A stretch of DNA of 50,328 nt from a virus. The DNA lies in IMG/VR virus record IMGVR_UViG_3300024259_000003, one strand, 5' to 3'. The position numbers and the translations under genes were made by a program. Shown piece by piece: positions 16,842-20,284 of this stretch. The notes below the pieces were generated by a model, which was given only the letters and a program-made list of their open reading frames with translations, was not told the origin of the DNA and searched no databases. Every line of letters starts with the position of its first letter. Position 1 is the stretch's first letter.

Positions 16842-17678
16842 ATGGCTCTTAACTCACTTTATTCTAATAAAAAATTCTTAAGGCTTATTAGGGATCTCGG
16901 CATATCTAAGGCTCAAACGCTTGGTCATCTTGAGCTGCTATGGCACTCGACATATTCGAACTGTGACCCCAATGTGGGTGACTTTATTGATATCGAGGTC
17001 GCTGCCGAATGGGAGGGTGAGTGCGGTGATTTCGCTAAAGCGTTAGAGACAAGAGGATTTATTGATAGAATTGGAGATTCAGACGAGTACGAAATTCATC
17101 AATGGAGTGAACATGCACCTCCCTATATCAAGCGAAAATTGCTAAGACAAAAGCCGTCATCGGTTAACAAATGTCCGACACTGACCGACAATTGTAAACC
17201 ATCGGTAAATAAAAGTGAACCTGAAGTGAAGAGAATAGAAGAGAAAGGAATAGAAGAGAAACAAACAACCGACTCCTCTGATTCTCAATCAAAACCCAAA
17301 TGGGATGAGTCAGAACATGATTCTTCGGTTGTGGCGATAGCAAGGCACTGGATAGATACTGTAATAAAAAAACGGTATCCCGGATCTAACTTTGAACTCA
17401 GGACTCAGGTTGATGCAATCGAAACTCTGATGAAACGGAGAGATTTTATCAATGCCGGTTATGATATCGAGACGATCAGGGAAGTATTGAAATATTTGAA
17501 GCGCGACGATATCGAGGAGATCCTAAAAGAGAACCATCGATCGATCGGATCTCTTCTGAAATTTTGGGAAGGGCGGGGCCGAATACAGTTTTATGAGATT
17601 CTTGACAAATCCCGGGGAGGTACGGATCTTTTATCTCCGCCAGTTAAGTCAGTCAATAAAATAATGACAACGAGGTAA
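16842..17678 (+). CDS. Putative replication initiator / replisome organiser
   Basis: Sits immediately upstream of the DnaC-like loader. Has an N-terminal winged-helix-like region and an acidic/Ser-rich linker. Assignment is by position only. Confidence 0.3.
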   Translation: MALNSLYSNKKFLRLIRDLGISKAQTLGHLELLWHSTYSNCDPNVGDFIDIEVAAEWEGECGDFAKALETRGFIDRIGDSDEYEIHQWSEHAPPYIKRKLLRQKPSSVNKCPTLTDNCKPSVNKSEPEVKRIEEKGIEEKQTTDSSDSQSKPKWDESEHDSSVVAIARHWIDTVIKKRYPGSNFELRTQVDAIETLMKRRDFINAGYDIETIREVLKYLKRDDIEEILKENHRSIGSLLKFWEGRGRIQFYEILDKSRGGTDLLSPPVKSVNKIMTTR

Positions 17679-17681
17679 TCT

Positions 17682-18266
17682 ATGAGTATTCACCAGATTC
17701 ACCAGCAAATGATGATCCCGCAGGTTTACCGGGGTTACACGATCAAGGACTTTAACGAATACAATGGTCGCTGGACCCCTGATGATGTCGCGAAATTTCA
17801 TCAACTCATCATTCAGTCAACTCACAATCGAAAAAATCTCGGTCTCTGCTCAACTAAGACGAAGCATGGAAAAACGATGTTAGCTGTTGCTTGGTTGACT
17901 GAGCTGTGGATTACTGACACGATTCATCACACTTGGAAAGATGAACCCGAACGCAGATTCCCATCGCTGTATAGATTCATCGACTGCACCGATCAGGGCG
18001 AGTTCGAGCAAGGGTTTGAGGCTGCCAAGCACTTCAAGGCTTTGACCAATAGCGCACGAGGGATCGTACTGGATGACTTAGGTCGCGAAGGGAAGTTCGC
18101 ATCGGATTGGTTTATGAGGATTATTTACTGGTGCCACAAGCGCGGTGTCCCGATCATGGTCACATCTAACATGCTCTCCGCGAAATTAGAATCACATTAC
18201 GGTCCGAACGTGATCAGGAGAATTGATGATAACGGGCTGATCGTTGACATGGAGGTTAAGGGATGA
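17682..18266 (+). CDS. DnaC/IstB-like AAA+ helicase loader
   Basis: Walker A TKTKHGKT; Walker B GIVLDDLGRE; about 190 aa. Confidence 0.55.
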   Translation: MSIHQIHQQMMIPQVYRGYTIKDFNEYNGRWTPDDVAKFHQLIIQSTHNRKNLGLCSTKTKHGKTMLAVAWLTELWITDTIHHTWKDEPERRFPSLYRFIDCTDQGEFEQGFEAAKHFKALTNSARGIVLDDLGREGKFASDWFMRIIYWCHKRGVPIMVTSNMLSAKLESHYGPNVIRRIDDNGLIVDMEVKG

Positions 18267-18976
18267 ATCACCTTGATTTGTTCACTGGCATCATGGGGTT
18301 TTCTATCGCAGCGCATCTCGCAGGGATAAAGACAGTTGCTGTATCGGAAATTGAACCCTACTGCTGCGAGCTGATCAAACTCAGGATGCCGGGGGTGCAG
18401 AATCTTGGGGATATTAAAAACTATGAGGAGTGGGCGATAGATGAGCCAATTGACATTATTACCGCCTCGCCTCCGTGTCAGCCATTCTCGGTTGCGGGGA
18501 AGCAAGCAGGGAAATCAGATGACCGAAATCTCTGGAAAGAAACTGTCGGAACTGCTATCAAGTTCAACGCCGATTGGATCATTATTGAAAATGTTGTTGG
18601 AATCGTCAAGATGGTTCTCGATGAGTGGATTGATGACTTGGAGAGTGTCGGTTACGAAGTCGGGACGATTGATATACAAGCTGCTTGTGTCGGGCTACCA
18701 ACGGTGGAACGGCACATTTGGATTATTGCCTCGTCCAACGGCATCAGACAAAAAAGGGGCATCTGCAAAGAGATTCAGAGAATCGGAACACAGTCATGGG
18801 AATTTCCGCGAGGTGATCAGGGAGAAACACAGCGATGGTCAATACCCGAGAGCAGAGTACGTCGAGTGGGTGAAGGGTTTTCCGGAGAAATGGACAGAGT
18901 TAAAGCACTCGGGAACGCTATCCCACCTCAGATTGCCTATGAAATAATGAGTTCCATAATGGAGGTTAACCAATGA
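18263..18976 (+). CDS. Compact DNA (cytosine-5)-methyltransferase
   Basis: Motif I DLFTGIMGFS, motif IV SPPCQPFSVAG, motif VI IIIENVVG, motif VIII GLPTVERHIWIIA, motif X RVKALGNAIPPQIA. Only 237 aa, so the target-recognition region is very short. Confidence 0.85.
   Translation: MNHLDLFTGIMGFSIAAHLAGIKTVAVSEIEPYCCELIKLRMPGVQNLGDIKNYEEWAIDEPIDIITASPPCQPFSVAGKQAGKSDDRNLWKETVGTAIKFNADWIIIENVVGIVKMVLDEWIDDLESVGYEVGTIDIQAACVGLPTVERHIWIIASSNGIRQKRGICKEIQRIGTQSWEFPRGDQGETQRWSIPESRVRRVGEGFSGEMDRVKALGNAIPPQIAYEIMSSIMEVNQ
18441..18947 (+). CDS. 168-codon alternative-frame (+1) ORF entirely inside the C5-MTase gene; possible overprinted gene or frameshift partner
   Basis: It is the longest same-strand ORF in this window that lies wholly inside another gene. 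Its translation contains ...SELLSSSTPIGSLLKMLLESS.W...TWRVSVTKSGRL...GLLPRPTASDKKG...EYVEWVKGFPEKWTEL. GGAG lies 10 nt before ATG 18441. Confidence 0.3.
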   Translation: MSQLTLLPPRLRVSHSRLRGSKQGNQMTEISGKKLSELLSSSTPIGSLLKMLLESSRWFSMSGLMTWRVSVTKSGRLIYKLLVSGYQRWNGTFGLLPRPTASDKKGASAKRFRESEHSHGNFREVIREKHSDGQYPRAEYVEWVKGFPEKWTELKHSGTLSHLRLPMK

Positions 18977-19197
18977 CATTTAGAAGATTCAGGCATGAGA
19001 GGATAGAGCGATTCGTGACTAAAGTGGACGGAACGATGCACGTCTATGAGCGGGTTGAGTTGATCCCGGAACATGCCGAGGGAAGAGACGGGCTTGTCAA
19101 GTGGTGTCGGTGTCGGTGGTATGGTCGCATCAGAATATTTGGGTCCGACGCGATAAGCAAACTTGAGATGTTAAGAATAGGAGATACTCCATTTTGA
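18973..19197 (+). CDS. Hypothetical protein
   Basis: ORF, ATGA overlap with the MTase gene. Confidence 0.4.
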   Translation: MTFRRFRHERIERFVTKVDGTMHVYERVELIPEHAEGRDGLVKWCRCRWYGRIRIFGSDAISKLEMLRIGDTPF

Positions 19198-19571
19198 ATA
19201 TATCCGTTCCAAGAAATCATCGCGATATAATGTTCGCGTTGCTACAAAAGGAATTGATAATCAACGTCTATGATATATTTGTTCCTAATCAGCCTTATGA
19301 TCCAAGTAAAGAGGGATACACGTTGAATCGTTTCAATATAGGTGATATTGAAACATCGACCAAGACGTTTGAAAATGTATGTCACCTCGGTTATATAAAA
19401 TCGGATCTCGTTATCGATGAGAATGACCAGACAGTGAGAGGAATTGACCTTGCTGTGAAGGCGGGTTTCTATAAATGTGGGTTGTCTAATCTTGGGGAAA
19501 AAATAATCAGATCATTCAGTAAAAGGGATCTGGAAAAAACTGGCACAGTCATATGTAGAGGGGTGGGGTAA
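19194..19571 (+). CDS. Hypothetical protein
   Basis: ORF (TTG start), overlaps both neighbours. Confidence 0.4.
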   Translation: MNISVPRNHRDIMFALLQKELIINVYDIFVPNQPYDPSKEGYTLNRFNIGDIETSTKTFENVCHLGYIKSDLVIDENDQTVRGIDLAVKAGFYKCGLSNLGEKIIRSFSKRDLEKTGTVICRGVG

Positions 19572-20284
19572 TGACAGAAGTCGAGCTTGGACGATGTATC
19601 TCAGATTGGTTACGAAGTGAGGGGTGGGATGTATATCAAGAGGTTAGTGCGGGATATGGTGGGGCGCGAGCTGATATTGTTGCAAGAAAGAAACGCCTGA
19701 TATGGGTGATTGAGCTTAAAACTTCAATGAGCTTAAAACTATTAGATCAGATAATCCCGTACAGGGAATTTGCGCATTTTATATCGATCGGATACATTAG
19801 TAAACATGGGCGATTGTCGGGCATACGGAATCGAAATGTTATGAATTATTTAAATTGCAGTCTTGGATTAGGGTGTTTCGGAGTAGAACCGGGAAGTGAT
19901 TATCAAGCTAGTTACGTCAGGGAGTATATTTCTCCTCGACATTACAGACCGCGCAATCCAGACGCTATAAATAAAGGTCTGTGTCCAGAGCACAAGAACA
20001 CTACTGATGCGGGATCAAATAAAGGTGGGTATCATACGCCATTTAGAGGTACTGTAAACACGTTGATTAATTATGTATCTTGCGTTCCGGGATGCACGAT
20101 TAAAGAAGCAATTGATTCAATCAATCATCACTACGCCAGTGATGCAACAGCAAAGGCATGTCTGTCTAAATTCATCGGAACTGATGTGATTCGTGACATT
20201 GTATTCGATGAAACGGTGAGACCGTACAAGCTTTATCTTAAAAAAGATTTTATCATTGGAAGCACAAAAGTGGAGAATAATTAG
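19571..20284 (+). CDS. PD-(D/E)XK nuclease-like protein (MmcB/Hjc-like) with a C-terminal extension
   Basis: E..(W..EGWDVYQEV)...ARADIVA...IWVIELKTS has the spacing of an E...D...ExK nuclease core. Confidence 0.4.
   Translation: MTEVELGRCISDWLRSEGWDVYQEVSAGYGGARADIVARKKRLIWVIELKTSMSLKLLDQIIPYREFAHFISIGYISKHGRLSGIRNRNVMNYLNCSLGLGCFGVEPGSDYQASYVREYISPRHYRPRNPDAINKGLCPEHKNTTDAGSNKGGYHTPFRGTVNTLINYVSCVPGCTIKEAIDSINHHYASDATAKACLSKFIGTDVIRDIVFDETVRPYKLYLKKDFIIGSTKVENN

What the first reader, a model, noticed from the sequence alone, without database searches (positions are those of the whole stretch)
18441..18947. A 168-codon ORF in the +1 frame, entirely inside a compact C5-methyltransferase gene, whose product itself looks methylase-related
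Frame A (18263..18976) carries the full ordered C5-MTase motif set across the whole gene: DLFTGIMGFS, PPCQPFS, IIENV, GLPTVERHIWIIA and RVKALGNAIPPQIA. The +1 frame stays open for 168 codons over the same DNA. This is the longest fully embedded same-strand ORF in the window.

Its translation reads ...SELLSSSTPIGSLLKMLLESSRW...LMTWRVSVTKSGRL...FGLLPRPTASDKKG...AEYVEWVKGFPEKWTEL. From memory, not from a search, these resemble motifs found in the variable or C-terminal region of some phage and prophage cytosine methylases (LLPTPTAxD, and EW(L/M)MG(F/W)PxGWT just before motif X).

The frame-B GLLPRPTASD overlaps frame-A motif VIII, and the frame-B GFPEKWT overlaps the frame-A approach to motif X. 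The two readings therefore cannot be joined in series by one shift. The options are:
- true dual coding (overprinting);
- two isoforms linked by slippage;
- coincidence, helped by the L/S/R richness that is normal for off-frame translations.

Possible frame-exchange points are the A6G4 run at 18750-18759 and the UUA-AAG at about 18897-18902. GGAG lies 10 nt before ATG 18441.
Basis: partly seen in the sequence, partly recalled or inferred. Interest (0 to 1): 0.8.

Follow-up and report, generated by a model that had tools for sequence, protein, structure and literature searches.

The report
Two-subunit cytosine methylase in overlapping frames
One stretch of phage-like DNA is read in two frames to make the two halves of a DNA cytosine methylase, a rare arrangement first described in 1995 for the E. 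coli enzyme M.EcoHK31I and shown here to be conserved in hundreds of genomes.

Summary
ORF 18441..18947 (168 codons, +1 frame) lies wholly inside the C5-methyltransferase gene 18263..18976.

It is a genuine second gene, not a chance ORF.
- Every relative examined (88 loci from phages, prophages and bacteria of many phyla; 9 of 9 loci chosen only by similarity to the outer protein) has a homologous ORF in the same +1 frame.
- Third-codon-position variation of the outer gene collapses exactly between the start and stop of the inner ORF (entropy 1.72 to 1.14 to 1.66 bits).
- Over the outer gene's 'variable region' the codon-position pattern is that of the inner frame.
- A Shine-Dalgarno sequence plus start codon is conserved at the inner start.

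[quoted passage not shown] The inner protein (beta, PHROG 1008, no Pfam or NCBIfam family) carries the variable PTP-motif region and a motif-IX-like 'EWxxGFPxxWT'.

The best reading is a two-subunit methylase of the M.EcoHK31I type, where beta is encoded inside alpha in another frame and both are needed for activity. Frameshifting, coincidence and sequencing error are not supported.

This is a new member of a known but rarely recognised kind. Direct homology to M.EcoHK31I could not be tested.

The parts
18263..18976 (+). alpha gene (frame 0, 237 aa): the catalytic large-domain subunit of a C5 DNA methyltransferase, carrying motifs I, IV, VI, VIII and X
   Evidence: Pfam PF00145 E=4.6e-33 over residues 1-164. 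phrog_363 E=1.2e-52. AF2 pLDDT is above 90 for residues 1-160 and 220-237. The top Foldseek hit is M.HhaI, rmsd 1.7 A over 166 columns, TM-score on the target 0.45.
18441..18947 (+). beta gene (frame +1, 168 aa), fully embedded in alpha: the putative small-domain subunit (target recognition plus motif IX)
   Evidence: phrog_1008 E=6.7e-15. tblastn gives 39% identity and E=1e-23 to phage Lily gp63, annotated 'g62 internal gene'. There are 1252 database relatives. It is in the +1 frame in 88 of 88 related loci. Alpha third-position entropy drops over exactly this span.
18425..18430 (+). Shine-Dalgarno-like GAGGAG, 10 nt upstream of the beta ATG at 18441, lying inside alpha codons 55-56 (E-E)
   Evidence: Read directly from the sequence. 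An SD-like core plus start codon upstream of the beta 'QLTLF' motif occurs in 45 of 74 relatives, against 17% of control windows; for cores of at least 5 nt the figures are 38% against 2.6%.
18275..18304 (+). alpha motif I, DLFTGIMGFS (AdoMet-binding loop; M11 replaces a near-invariant G)
18470..18490 (+). alpha motif IV, PPCQPFS (catalytic Cys72); the same DNA reads PRLRVSH in beta
   Evidence: P71, C72 and Q73 are invariant
18581..18595 (+). alpha motif VI, IIENV; the same DNA reads LLKML in beta
   Evidence: The third position of V111 has entropy 0.35 bits, against about 1.9 at comparable four-fold sites outside the overlap.
18692..18730 (+). alpha motif VIII variant, GLPTVERHIWIIA; the same DNA reads YQRWNGTFGLL in beta, a string conserved in the closest beta relatives
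   Evidence: L013 has the same variant
18743..18898 (+). alpha residues 161-212: a predicted disordered linker where the small domain (TRD plus motif IX) of single-chain enzymes would sit. Here the beta frame is the one under selection.
   Evidence: AF2 pLDDT is below 50 for residues 162-170 and 180-212, with no secondary structure. Codon-position entropy for alpha positions 1/2/3 is 1.49/1.02/1.28, so alpha position 1 (= beta position 3) is the freest.
18723..18749 (+). beta LLPRPTASD (residues 95-103): the 'hPTPxAxD' motif that recurs 1-4 times in longer beta proteins
18840..18896 (+). beta residues 134-152, QYPRAEYVEWVKGFPEKWT: the motif-IX-like element
   Evidence: hhalign of the beta profile against M.HhaI gives a single match, beta 134-152 to HhaI 272-290 (RKLHPRECARVMGYPDSYK, which is motif IX), E=0.059. 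E142, G146, P148, W151 and T152 are invariant. AF2 places a helix at 138-145 with pLDDT around 85-90.
18896..18937 (+). alpha motif X, RVKALGNAIPPQIA. It begins where beta conservation ends, and third-position freedom returns from codon 215.

Best explanation
The 714-bp locus encodes a two-subunit DNA (cytosine-5) methyltransferase in two overlapping reading frames of one mRNA.

Alpha (frame 0, 237 aa) is the AdoMet-binding and catalytic large domain. It holds motifs I-VIII, then a roughly 50-residue unstructured linker, then the motif X helix that packs back onto the large domain.

Beta (frame +1, 168 aa) is translated independently from ATG 18441, using the GAGGAG ribosome-binding site embedded in alpha codons 55-56. 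It supplies what alpha lacks: the small-domain functions, namely target recognition (the hPTPxAxD region) and motif IX (EWxxGFPxxWT).

The two polypeptides assemble non-covalently into the active enzyme. This was shown experimentally for M.EcoHK31I, whose beta chain is likewise encoded entirely inside alpha in another frame.

In a phage replication-module operon the enzyme most likely protects phage DNA from host restriction.

Shown here: both frames are under purifying selection, the internal start signal is conserved, alpha lacks a small domain, and beta is a conserved family. Inferred: physical association, the requirement for both chains, beta's role in sequence recognition, and the biological role.
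For: 1. Architecture is conserved. Beta is in the +1 frame of a C5-MTase ORF in 88 of 88 loci having both hits, and is fully embedded in about 76 of them. These loci come from phages (Paenibacillus, Lactobacillus, Bacteroides), IMG/VR contigs and at least 329 bacterial genome loci across many phyla. All 9 loci chosen only by alpha similarity carry it.
2. Selection acts on both frames. Alpha codon-position-3 entropy is 1.72 bits before the overlap, 1.14 within it and 1.66 after it. The switches fall at codons about 62 and about 215, which are the beta boundaries. At four-fold sites of conserved alpha residues the values are 1.85 outside against 1.13 inside, p=0.001.
3. Beta is as conserved as alpha. 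Against phage Lily, alpha is 35% and beta 39% identical; against L013, 43% and 46%.
4. An internal SD plus start codon is enriched at the beta start: 61% of loci against 17% of control windows.
5. In the alpha model the linker 162-212 is disordered and the rest superposes on the M.HhaI large domain only.
6. In longer relatives the alpha 'variable region' reads as low-complexity sequence rich in R, G, E and N. The beta frame over the same DNA reads as repeated hPTPxAxD units ending in EWLMGFPxGWT.
7. The only hhalign match of the beta profile on M.HhaI is motif IX.
8. There is a precedent. M.EcoHK31I has beta encoded wholly within alpha in another frame, alpha carrying motifs I-VIII and X, beta carrying motif IX, and both required for activity (PMC2836561; PMC3404938).
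9. GenBank annotators of phage Lily recorded the homologous ORF as 'g62 internal gene'.
Against: - There is no direct evidence of translation of beta or of an alpha-beta complex for this sequence.
- The motif IX assignment rests on a 19-residue hhalign match with weak statistics (E=0.059, probability below 1%).
- Pfam does not recognise beta, nor even the beta variants that carry motif X in frame.
- Beta modelled alone is only moderately confident (pLDDT 69, pTM 0.39) and has no fold match in the PDB.
- The literature places the TRD of M.EcoHK31I in alpha, whereas here it appears to be in beta.
- Homology to M.EcoHK31I itself could not be checked.
- The window's alpha departs from near-invariant residues (G11M, G69S, and PTVERH in motif VIII in place of PHRRDR), so its activity is not guaranteed. 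Relatives share some of these changes (L004 has GILGF; L013 has PTVERHIW).
- Most comparative loci were found through beta similarity, which biases toward beta conservation. This is mitigated by the 9 alpha-ascertained loci.
Confidence: 0.8

Rival explanations
1. Beta is a real, conserved protein but not a methylase subunit. It could be a regulator of alpha expression or activity, or an independent DNA-binding or anti-restriction factor that merely shares the DNA.
For: Beta has no Pfam or NCBIfam family and no PDB sequence or fold match. Its link to motif IX is statistically weak.
Against: Beta was never found apart from alpha in the loci examined, and always in the same frame. Alpha lacks motif IX and a small domain, so something must supply them. 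In some relatives the beta frame runs on into motif X itself (L049, L066, L072, P0055, P0102), which ties beta to the methylase fold. M.EcoHK31I beta is required for methylation.
Confidence: 0.1
2. Programmed ribosomal frameshifting produces a single chain. This would be either a 0 to +1 shift after motif VIII followed by a +1 to 0 shift before motif X, or isoforms joined at the A6G4 run or at UUA-AAG.
For: The composite A(1-156) + B(95-152) + A(212-237) reads colinearly like a single-chain enzyme and scores slightly better on Pfam (118.0 against 115.5 bits). In some relatives a single shift would join motifs I-VIII to TRD-IX-X.
Against: Two shifts in opposite directions would be required. The +1 frame is kept open and under selection for about 95 codons upstream of motif VIII, starting at a conserved SD plus start codon; this is unnecessary if beta were entered by frameshifting. 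The A6G4 run is not conserved, since relatives read SDSKG, SDAKG or SDHKG. No X_XXY_YYZ heptamer lies at either junction.
Confidence: 0.05
3. The ORF is a coincidence, an untranslated open frame favoured by the composition of the gene.
For: Off-frame translations are rich in L, S and R. The shuffle null gives a mean +1 stop-free run as long as 72-78 codons, with p of about 0.002 rather than something astronomically small.
Against: The frame is open in essentially all relatives at 30-45% alpha identity, beta identity equals or exceeds alpha identity, and synonymous variation is suppressed exactly over the ORF.
Confidence: 0.02
4. The overlap is an artefact: two compensating indel errors or a decaying pseudogene imitate an overlap in what is really a single-frame methylase.
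For: Homopolymer runs lie near both notional junctions (TTT at 18717-18719, AAA at 18888-18890).
Against: The same two-frame layout appears in more than 85 independent assemblies, including finished phage genomes and complete chromosomes. The exact alpha protein is found on 11 contigs from three sources.
Confidence: 0.01

Closest known systems
M.EcoHK31I (E. coli HK31, YGGCCR): a C5-methyltransferase made of polypeptides alpha and beta (Lee, Kam & Shaw 1995, as described in PMC2836561 and PMC3404938)
   Same: Beta is encoded entirely within the alpha gene in a different reading frame. Alpha carries motifs I-VIII and X. Beta carries motif IX. Beta starts internally, and in EcoHK31I both chains are needed for activity.
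   Different: Sequence homology could not be tested: the EcoHK31I sequence is not in any reachable collection, and there was no E. coli or plasmid match. The literature assigns the TRD of EcoHK31I to alpha. Here alpha has only a disordered 50-residue linker, and selection in that region acts on the beta frame, so recognition is probably in beta. The window's enzyme is phage-borne, with no adjacent restriction gene identified.
M.AquI (Agmenellum quadruplicatum, CYCGRG): a two-subunit C5-methyltransferase (Karreman & de Waard 1990, via PMC3404938)
   Same: It is a natural split within the variable region into a catalytic piece and a C-terminal piece. Some relatives of the window gene (L049, L066, L072, P0055, P0102) have this layout: alpha stops after motif VIII and beta carries TRD, IX and X.
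   Different: In the window motif X is in alpha, not beta, and beta is completely embedded rather than overlapping only at its start.
Paenibacillus larvae phage Lily gp62/gp63 and PHROG 1008
   Same: This is the same gene pair. gp63 ('g62 internal gene') is in the +1 frame inside the C5-MTase gp62, and is 39% identical to the window's beta. All beta sequences tested hit phrog_1008.
   Different: It exists only as database annotation. The genomic survey of these phages that was read (PMC6070908) lists two 'DNA-cytosine methyltransferases' without comment on the overlap. No functional work was found.
Single-chain C5-methyltransferases such as M.HhaI and M.HaeIII
   Same: Alpha superposes on their large domain (rmsd 1.7 A). 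Beta residues 134-152 align with M.HhaI motif IX.
   Different: Their TRD and motif IX lie in-line between motifs VIII and X in one frame. Here that segment is read from the +1 frame as a separate protein with an extra roughly 95-residue N-terminal part overprinted on motifs IV-VIII.

Membership tests
DNA (cytosine-5) methyltransferase, Pfam PF00145 (alpha) | Motifs I (FxGxG), IV (PCQ), VI (ENV), VIII and X (GNxxP) in order | tested here: met
   PF00145 E=4.6e-33, 115.5 bits against a cut-off of 22. P71, C72, Q73, E109, N110, G217 and N218 are invariant in the family alignment. Motif I has M in place of the second-last G, and motif VIII is a PTVERH variant.
DNA (cytosine-5) methyltransferase, Pfam PF00145 (alpha) | TRD and motif IX lie between motifs VIII and X in the same polypeptide | tested here: not met
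   The Pfam match stops at profile position 168 of 324. Alpha residues 162-212 are predicted disordered. Foldseek covers only about half of M.HhaI (TM-score on target 0.45).
M.EcoHK31I-type overlapping two-polypeptide C5-MTase | The beta ORF lies wholly inside the alpha ORF, on the same strand, in a different frame | tested here: met
   18441..18947 lies within 18263..18976 in the +1 frame. The layout is conserved in relatives.
M.EcoHK31I-type overlapping two-polypeptide C5-MTase | Alpha has motifs I-VIII and X; motif IX is on beta | tested here: inconclusive
   The alpha part is met. The beta motif IX assignment rests on the pattern LxPxxxExxMGFPxxW and one hhalign match to M.HhaI 272-290 with E=0.059.
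M.EcoHK31I-type overlapping two-polypeptide C5-MTase | Both polypeptides are required for methylation and they associate physically | not testable with these tools
   This needs expression and methylation assays, or at least a multimer structure prediction. Only single chains could be modelled.
M.EcoHK31I-type overlapping two-polypeptide C5-MTase | Sequence homology to M.EcoHK31I alpha and beta | not tested
   The sequence could not be obtained. The original paper (PMC306636) is not held. There was no match in E. coli genomes or plasmids.
PHROG 1008 (beta) | Significant match to the family profile | tested here: met
   E=6.7e-15 for the window's beta. 11 of 11 aligned beta sequences match, best E=5.8e-44.
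M.AquI-type split C5-MTase | Alpha carries motifs I-VIII only; beta carries motifs IX and X | tested here: not met
   In the window motif X (RVKALGNAIPPQIA) is in the alpha frame. The layout is met in relatives L049, L066 and L072.
Programmed ribosomal frameshift gene | A conserved slippery site at the frame junction, with no independent start for the second frame | tested here: not met
   The A6G4 run is not conserved at the protein-alignment level. A conserved internal SD plus start codon is present, and selection on the +1 frame begins about 95 codons before the junction.

The most novel reading that the evidence does not exclude
In this very large, mostly phage- and prophage-borne family the DNA-recognition module is not in alpha, as the literature states for M.EcoHK31I. 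It sits in the overprinted beta protein, built from a variable number of about 25-30-residue 'hPTPxAxD' units. The alpha 'variable region' is then only a passenger linker whose length is dictated by beta.

The family would have arisen from a single-chain methylase by a frameshift after motif VIII, rescued by internal initiation in an upstream +1 ORF overprinted on motifs IV-VIII (the M.AquI-like stage still seen in L049, L066 and L072). A second shift would then have returned motif X to alpha.

That would make it one of the most widespread and ancient long same-strand gene overlaps in prokaryotic viruses. It is largely invisible to gene callers: the exact beta sequence is absent from a 15-billion-protein collection, and no Pfam or NCBIfam model exists.
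Probability: 0.4. Interest if true: 0.65.

Novelty: new member of a known kind. Interest (0 to 1): 0.5.

Why it matters
Long same-strand overlaps in which both products are conserved, functional proteins are rare in bacteria and phages, and gene finders systematically miss them. Here 71% of a gene is read in two frames.

Three practical consequences follow.
- Thousands of 'short Dcm' genes in phage and prophage annotations are probably only half of an enzyme. Their specificity cannot be predicted, and they cannot be expressed correctly, without the hidden beta ORF.
- Beta has no Pfam or NCBIfam model, so a profile built from the alignments made here would recover it.
- The pair is a natural heterodimeric methylase platform of minimal size (27 + 19 kDa). 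M.EcoHK31I has already been used in this way for targeted methylation (PMC2836561).

The family also offers a well-sampled case for studying how two proteins co-evolve on one DNA sequence.

Tried and rejected
- Pfam on beta, on its C-terminal half, on long beta relatives, and on beta variants that include motif X gave no hits even at E up to 10.
- NCBIfam on beta gave nothing.
- The beta profile against PDB sequences gave nothing meaningful.
- The AF2 model of beta alone was mediocre (pLDDT 69, pTM 0.39) and had no Foldseek match in the PDB. This is expected for a subunit that folds against a partner, so the result is uninformative.
- A composite A-B-A protein raised the Pfam score by only 2.5 bits. 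That is not enough to argue for a fused product.
- A megablast search of the neighbourhood against phages found no match, so the source phage is not in GenBank phages.
- Attempts to reach the M.EcoHK31I sequence failed. The original paper is not held, tblastn of beta against plasmids found only Bacillus, Paenibacillus, Lacticaseibacillus and Bacteroides records, and blastn against E. coli genomes found no match.
- An exact look-up of P0054 (the Bacillus paralicheniformis beta) found no record.
- Literature searches for a description of this family beyond EcoHK31I and AquI found none.
- I first considered that the locus was a doubly frameshifted single-chain gene (A to B to A). I rejected this once the N-terminal 95 codons of beta proved to be conserved and under selection.
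Full report
**1. Observation**

The window holds an ATG..TGA ORF at 18263..18976 (237 aa, called alpha here). Inside it, in the +1 frame, lies an ATG..TAA ORF at 18441..18947 (168 aa, called beta). GAGGAG sits at 18425-18430, 10 nt before the beta ATG. The A6G4 run is at 18750-18759.

Alpha starts on the stop codon of the preceding ORF (ATGA at 18263-18266). The next ORF starts on alpha's stop codon (ATGA at 18973-18976), so the genes form a tight operon.

The embedded ORF is by far the longest in the window; the next longest alternative-frame open run is 93 codons. Under synonymous-codon permutation of alpha, a +1 open run of at least 168 codons occurs with probability about 0.002.

**2. What each frame matches**

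Alpha hits Pfam DNA_methylase (E=4.6e-33), but only residues 1-164 align, to profile positions 1-168 of 324. Motifs I, IV, VI, VIII and X are present and motif IX is not.

Beta has no Pfam or NCBIfam hit. It does hit PHROG 1008, 'DNA methyltransferase', at E=6.7e-15.

tblastn of beta against GenBank phages finds 70 records. The best is Paenibacillus phage Lily, with 39% identity over residues 1-160 and E=1e-23. It lies in the +1 frame inside the C5-methyltransferase gp62. The same layout is unannotated in phages Lilo and Lc-Nu.

**3. How widespread the arrangement is**

- A profile of beta sequences retrieves 1252 proteins from metagenomes and genomes. Of the 120 listed, only one, a frameshift chimera, has a Pfam domain.
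- A beta-based scan of one genome per species returns at least 329 loci. They include Bacillota, Bacteroidota, Alpha- and Gammaproteobacteria, Desulfobacterota, Cloacimonadota and Parcubacteria.
- In all 88 loci where both alpha and beta can be located, beta is in the +1 frame of a C5-MTase ORF. In about 76 of them it is fully embedded.
- This set was found through beta, so I also checked loci ascertained only by alpha. Five IMG/VR loci and four loci taken at ranks 6, 46, 79 and 113 of an alpha protein search all carry the +1 ORF with the beta hallmarks. Their +2 frames are open for only 30-83 codons.

**4. Selection on both frames**

I built a codon alignment of 74 non-identical alpha genes and measured mean entropy at alpha codon positions 1, 2 and 3.

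| Alpha codons | Relation to beta | Position 1 | Position 2 | Position 3 |
|---|---|---|---|---|
| 1-59 | before beta | 0.96 | 0.82 | 1.72 |
| 60-160 | overlap, motifs IV-VIII | 0.91 | 0.64 | 1.14 |
| 161-212 | overlap, 'variable region' | 1.49 | 1.02 | 1.28 |
| 213-237 | after beta | 1.01 | 0.72 | 1.66 |

The drop in position 3 begins at codon 62 and ends at codon 215, which are the beta boundaries.

In the variable region the freest position is alpha position 1, which is beta position 3. The codon periodicity there is that of beta.

I then restricted the comparison to four-fold degenerate codons of alpha residues conserved in at least 85% of sequences. Third-base entropy is 1.85 bits outside the overlap and 1.13 inside it (Mann-Whitney p=0.001).

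Beta is as conserved as alpha between the window and its relatives. Against Lily, alpha is 35% and beta 39% identical. Against L013, the figures are 43% and 46%.

**5. Independent initiation of beta**

A start codon preceded by a Shine-Dalgarno core of at least 4 nt lies within 20 codons upstream of the conserved beta 'QLTLF' motif in 45 of 74 loci. The rate in control windows of the same genes is 17%. For cores of at least 5 nt the rates are 38% and 2.6%. Many Bacillota loci read AAAGGAG-N7-ATG.

This signal, together with selection on the +1 frame for about 95 codons upstream of motif VIII, argues against entry into the beta frame by ribosomal frameshifting.

**6. What each protein is**

The AlphaFold model of alpha (120-sequence alignment) has pLDDT above 90 for residues 1-160 and 220-237. 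It falls below 50, with no secondary structure, for residues 162-170 and 180-212. Foldseek places the model on M.HhaI and M.HaeIII with rmsd 1.7-1.9 A over about 165 columns. The TM-score normalised to the target is only 0.45, meaning only the large domain is matched. Alpha is therefore a large catalytic domain whose small domain is replaced by a linker.

In relatives with longer genes, the alpha translation of this segment is low-complexity sequence rich in R, G, E and N. The beta translation of the same DNA is a series of hPTPxAxD units ending in LNPxFVEWLMGFPxGWT. The number of units tracks beta length (r=0.57).

I recalled the M.HhaI sequence from memory and verified it as identical to PDB 10mh_A. 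hhalign of the beta profile against it gives one match: beta 134-152 (QYPRAEYVEWVKGFPEKWT) on HhaI 272-290 (RKLHPRECARVMGYPDSYK). That HhaI segment is motif IX. The statistics are weak (E=0.059) but the position is exact.

The beta model alone is mediocre (pLDDT 69). Its best-defined part is residues 100-150, with a helix at 138-145 over the motif IX core. It has no PDB fold match, as expected for a chain that needs a partner.

**7. Mechanism proposed**

Alpha and beta are made from one mRNA and assemble into a C5-methyltransferase. Alpha binds AdoMet and performs catalysis. Beta supplies the motif IX element and probably target recognition.

This is inferred from the anatomy described above and from the characterised precedent. 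[quoted passage not shown] There alpha has motifs I-VIII and X, beta has motif IX, and the two chains must associate for activity. Truncating the beta N-terminus weakens association (PMC2836561; PMC3404938).

The biological role is an inference from context: the locus sits in a phage-like replication module. The exact alpha protein occurs on 11 metagenomic contigs, the longest 50,342 nt. Protection of phage DNA against host restriction is the most likely function.

**8. Variants in relatives**

- In L049, L066 and L072, and in proteins P0055 and P0102, alpha stops just after motif VIII and the beta frame continues through motif IX into motif X. This is the M.AquI layout.
- These variants show that TRD, motif IX and motif X can share the +1 frame. 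They suggest an evolutionary route from a frameshifted single-chain enzyme. That route is speculation.
- L042 and L060 have interrupted beta frames.
- L046 and L050 have a TGA just before the catalytic Cys of alpha.

**9. Rivals**

- Coincidence and sequencing artefact are excluded by the comparative data.
- Frameshift-fused isoforms are unlikely. They would need two opposite shifts, no slippery site is conserved, and there is a conserved internal start with upstream selection.
- The idea that beta is a functional protein unrelated to methylation cannot be excluded without experiments. It fits poorly with alpha's missing small domain and with beta carrying motif X in some relatives.

**10. Novelty**

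The architecture is known, from M.EcoHK31I (1995). The homologous ORF is annotated in a few phage records and forms PHROG 1008, so this is a new member of a known kind.

In the literature reachable here I found no description of three points:
- the size and phylogenetic breadth of the family;
- the absence of any Pfam or NCBIfam model for beta;
- the evidence that the recognition region lies in beta rather than alpha.

I could not test whether M.EcoHK31I is a sequence homologue of this family.

Noticed in passing
L046:1503-1556 and L050:1467-1520 (relatives; Paenibacillus sinensis and an Oscillospiraceae MAG): Both carry the same 6-nt insertion in alpha motif IV (CCTTG[ACCATG]CCA). It gives 'FP-TGA-PCQ', an in-frame stop just before the catalytic Cys, and adds two residues (L-D) to beta. 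Protein P0002 has the same L-D insertion in its beta. This could be a shared inactivating allele, a read-through site or a further split of alpha. It remains unexplained.
   Followed up: partly
L049:1272-2418, L066:1221-2523, L072:1230-2310; proteins P0055 and P0102: In these relatives alpha ends right after motif VIII, and the +1 (beta) frame runs through the TRD and motif IX and on into motif X (..GWTD..R.K.CGNAVVP..). This is an M.AquI-like split within the same family.
   Followed up: partly
window 18275-18304, 18464-18472, 18692-18730: The window's alpha departs from near-invariant family residues. Motif I is GIMG instead of GIGG (G11M). 'ASP' precedes PCQ instead of 'GGF' (G69S). Motif VIII is PTVERH instead of PHRRDR. 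L004 shares GILGF and L013 shares PTVERHIW, so these look like subclade variants rather than decay.
   Followed up: partly
beta proteins of L004, L007, L008, L012 and P0008: Long beta proteins contain 3-5 repeats of a hydrophobic-PTPxAxD/E unit (for example LLPTPQTQG, LLPSPVASD, LLPTPNASE, LLPTPQTRD). Copy number correlates with beta length (r=0.57). This may be a modular recognition domain.
   Followed up: partly
L001 (phage Lily) 871-1302; L003 (Lc-Nu) 2083-2790; L093 1-429: The alpha/beta pair is often adjacent to a second, unrelated methyltransferase gene: an N6-adenine MTase gp61 in Lily, 'putative methylase' ORF41 in Lc-Nu, and a PF01555 N6_N4_Mtase in L093. No such neighbour was recognised in the window.
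   Followed up: no
window 17682-18266: The upstream ORF (194 aa) overlaps the alpha start by ATGA. It has only sub-threshold similarity to PRK08116/PRK06835 ATP-binding proteins (NCBIfam E=9e-6 and 5e-3), which I take to be DnaC/IstB-like. The flanking ORFs 16842-17678, 18973-19197, 19194-19571 and 19571-20284 have no NCBIfam hit.
   Followed up: partly
window 18441-18944: The exact beta protein is absent from a collection of about 15 billion predicted proteins, although the exact alpha protein is present on 11 contigs. Gene callers therefore did not call this embedded gene here.
   Followed up: yes
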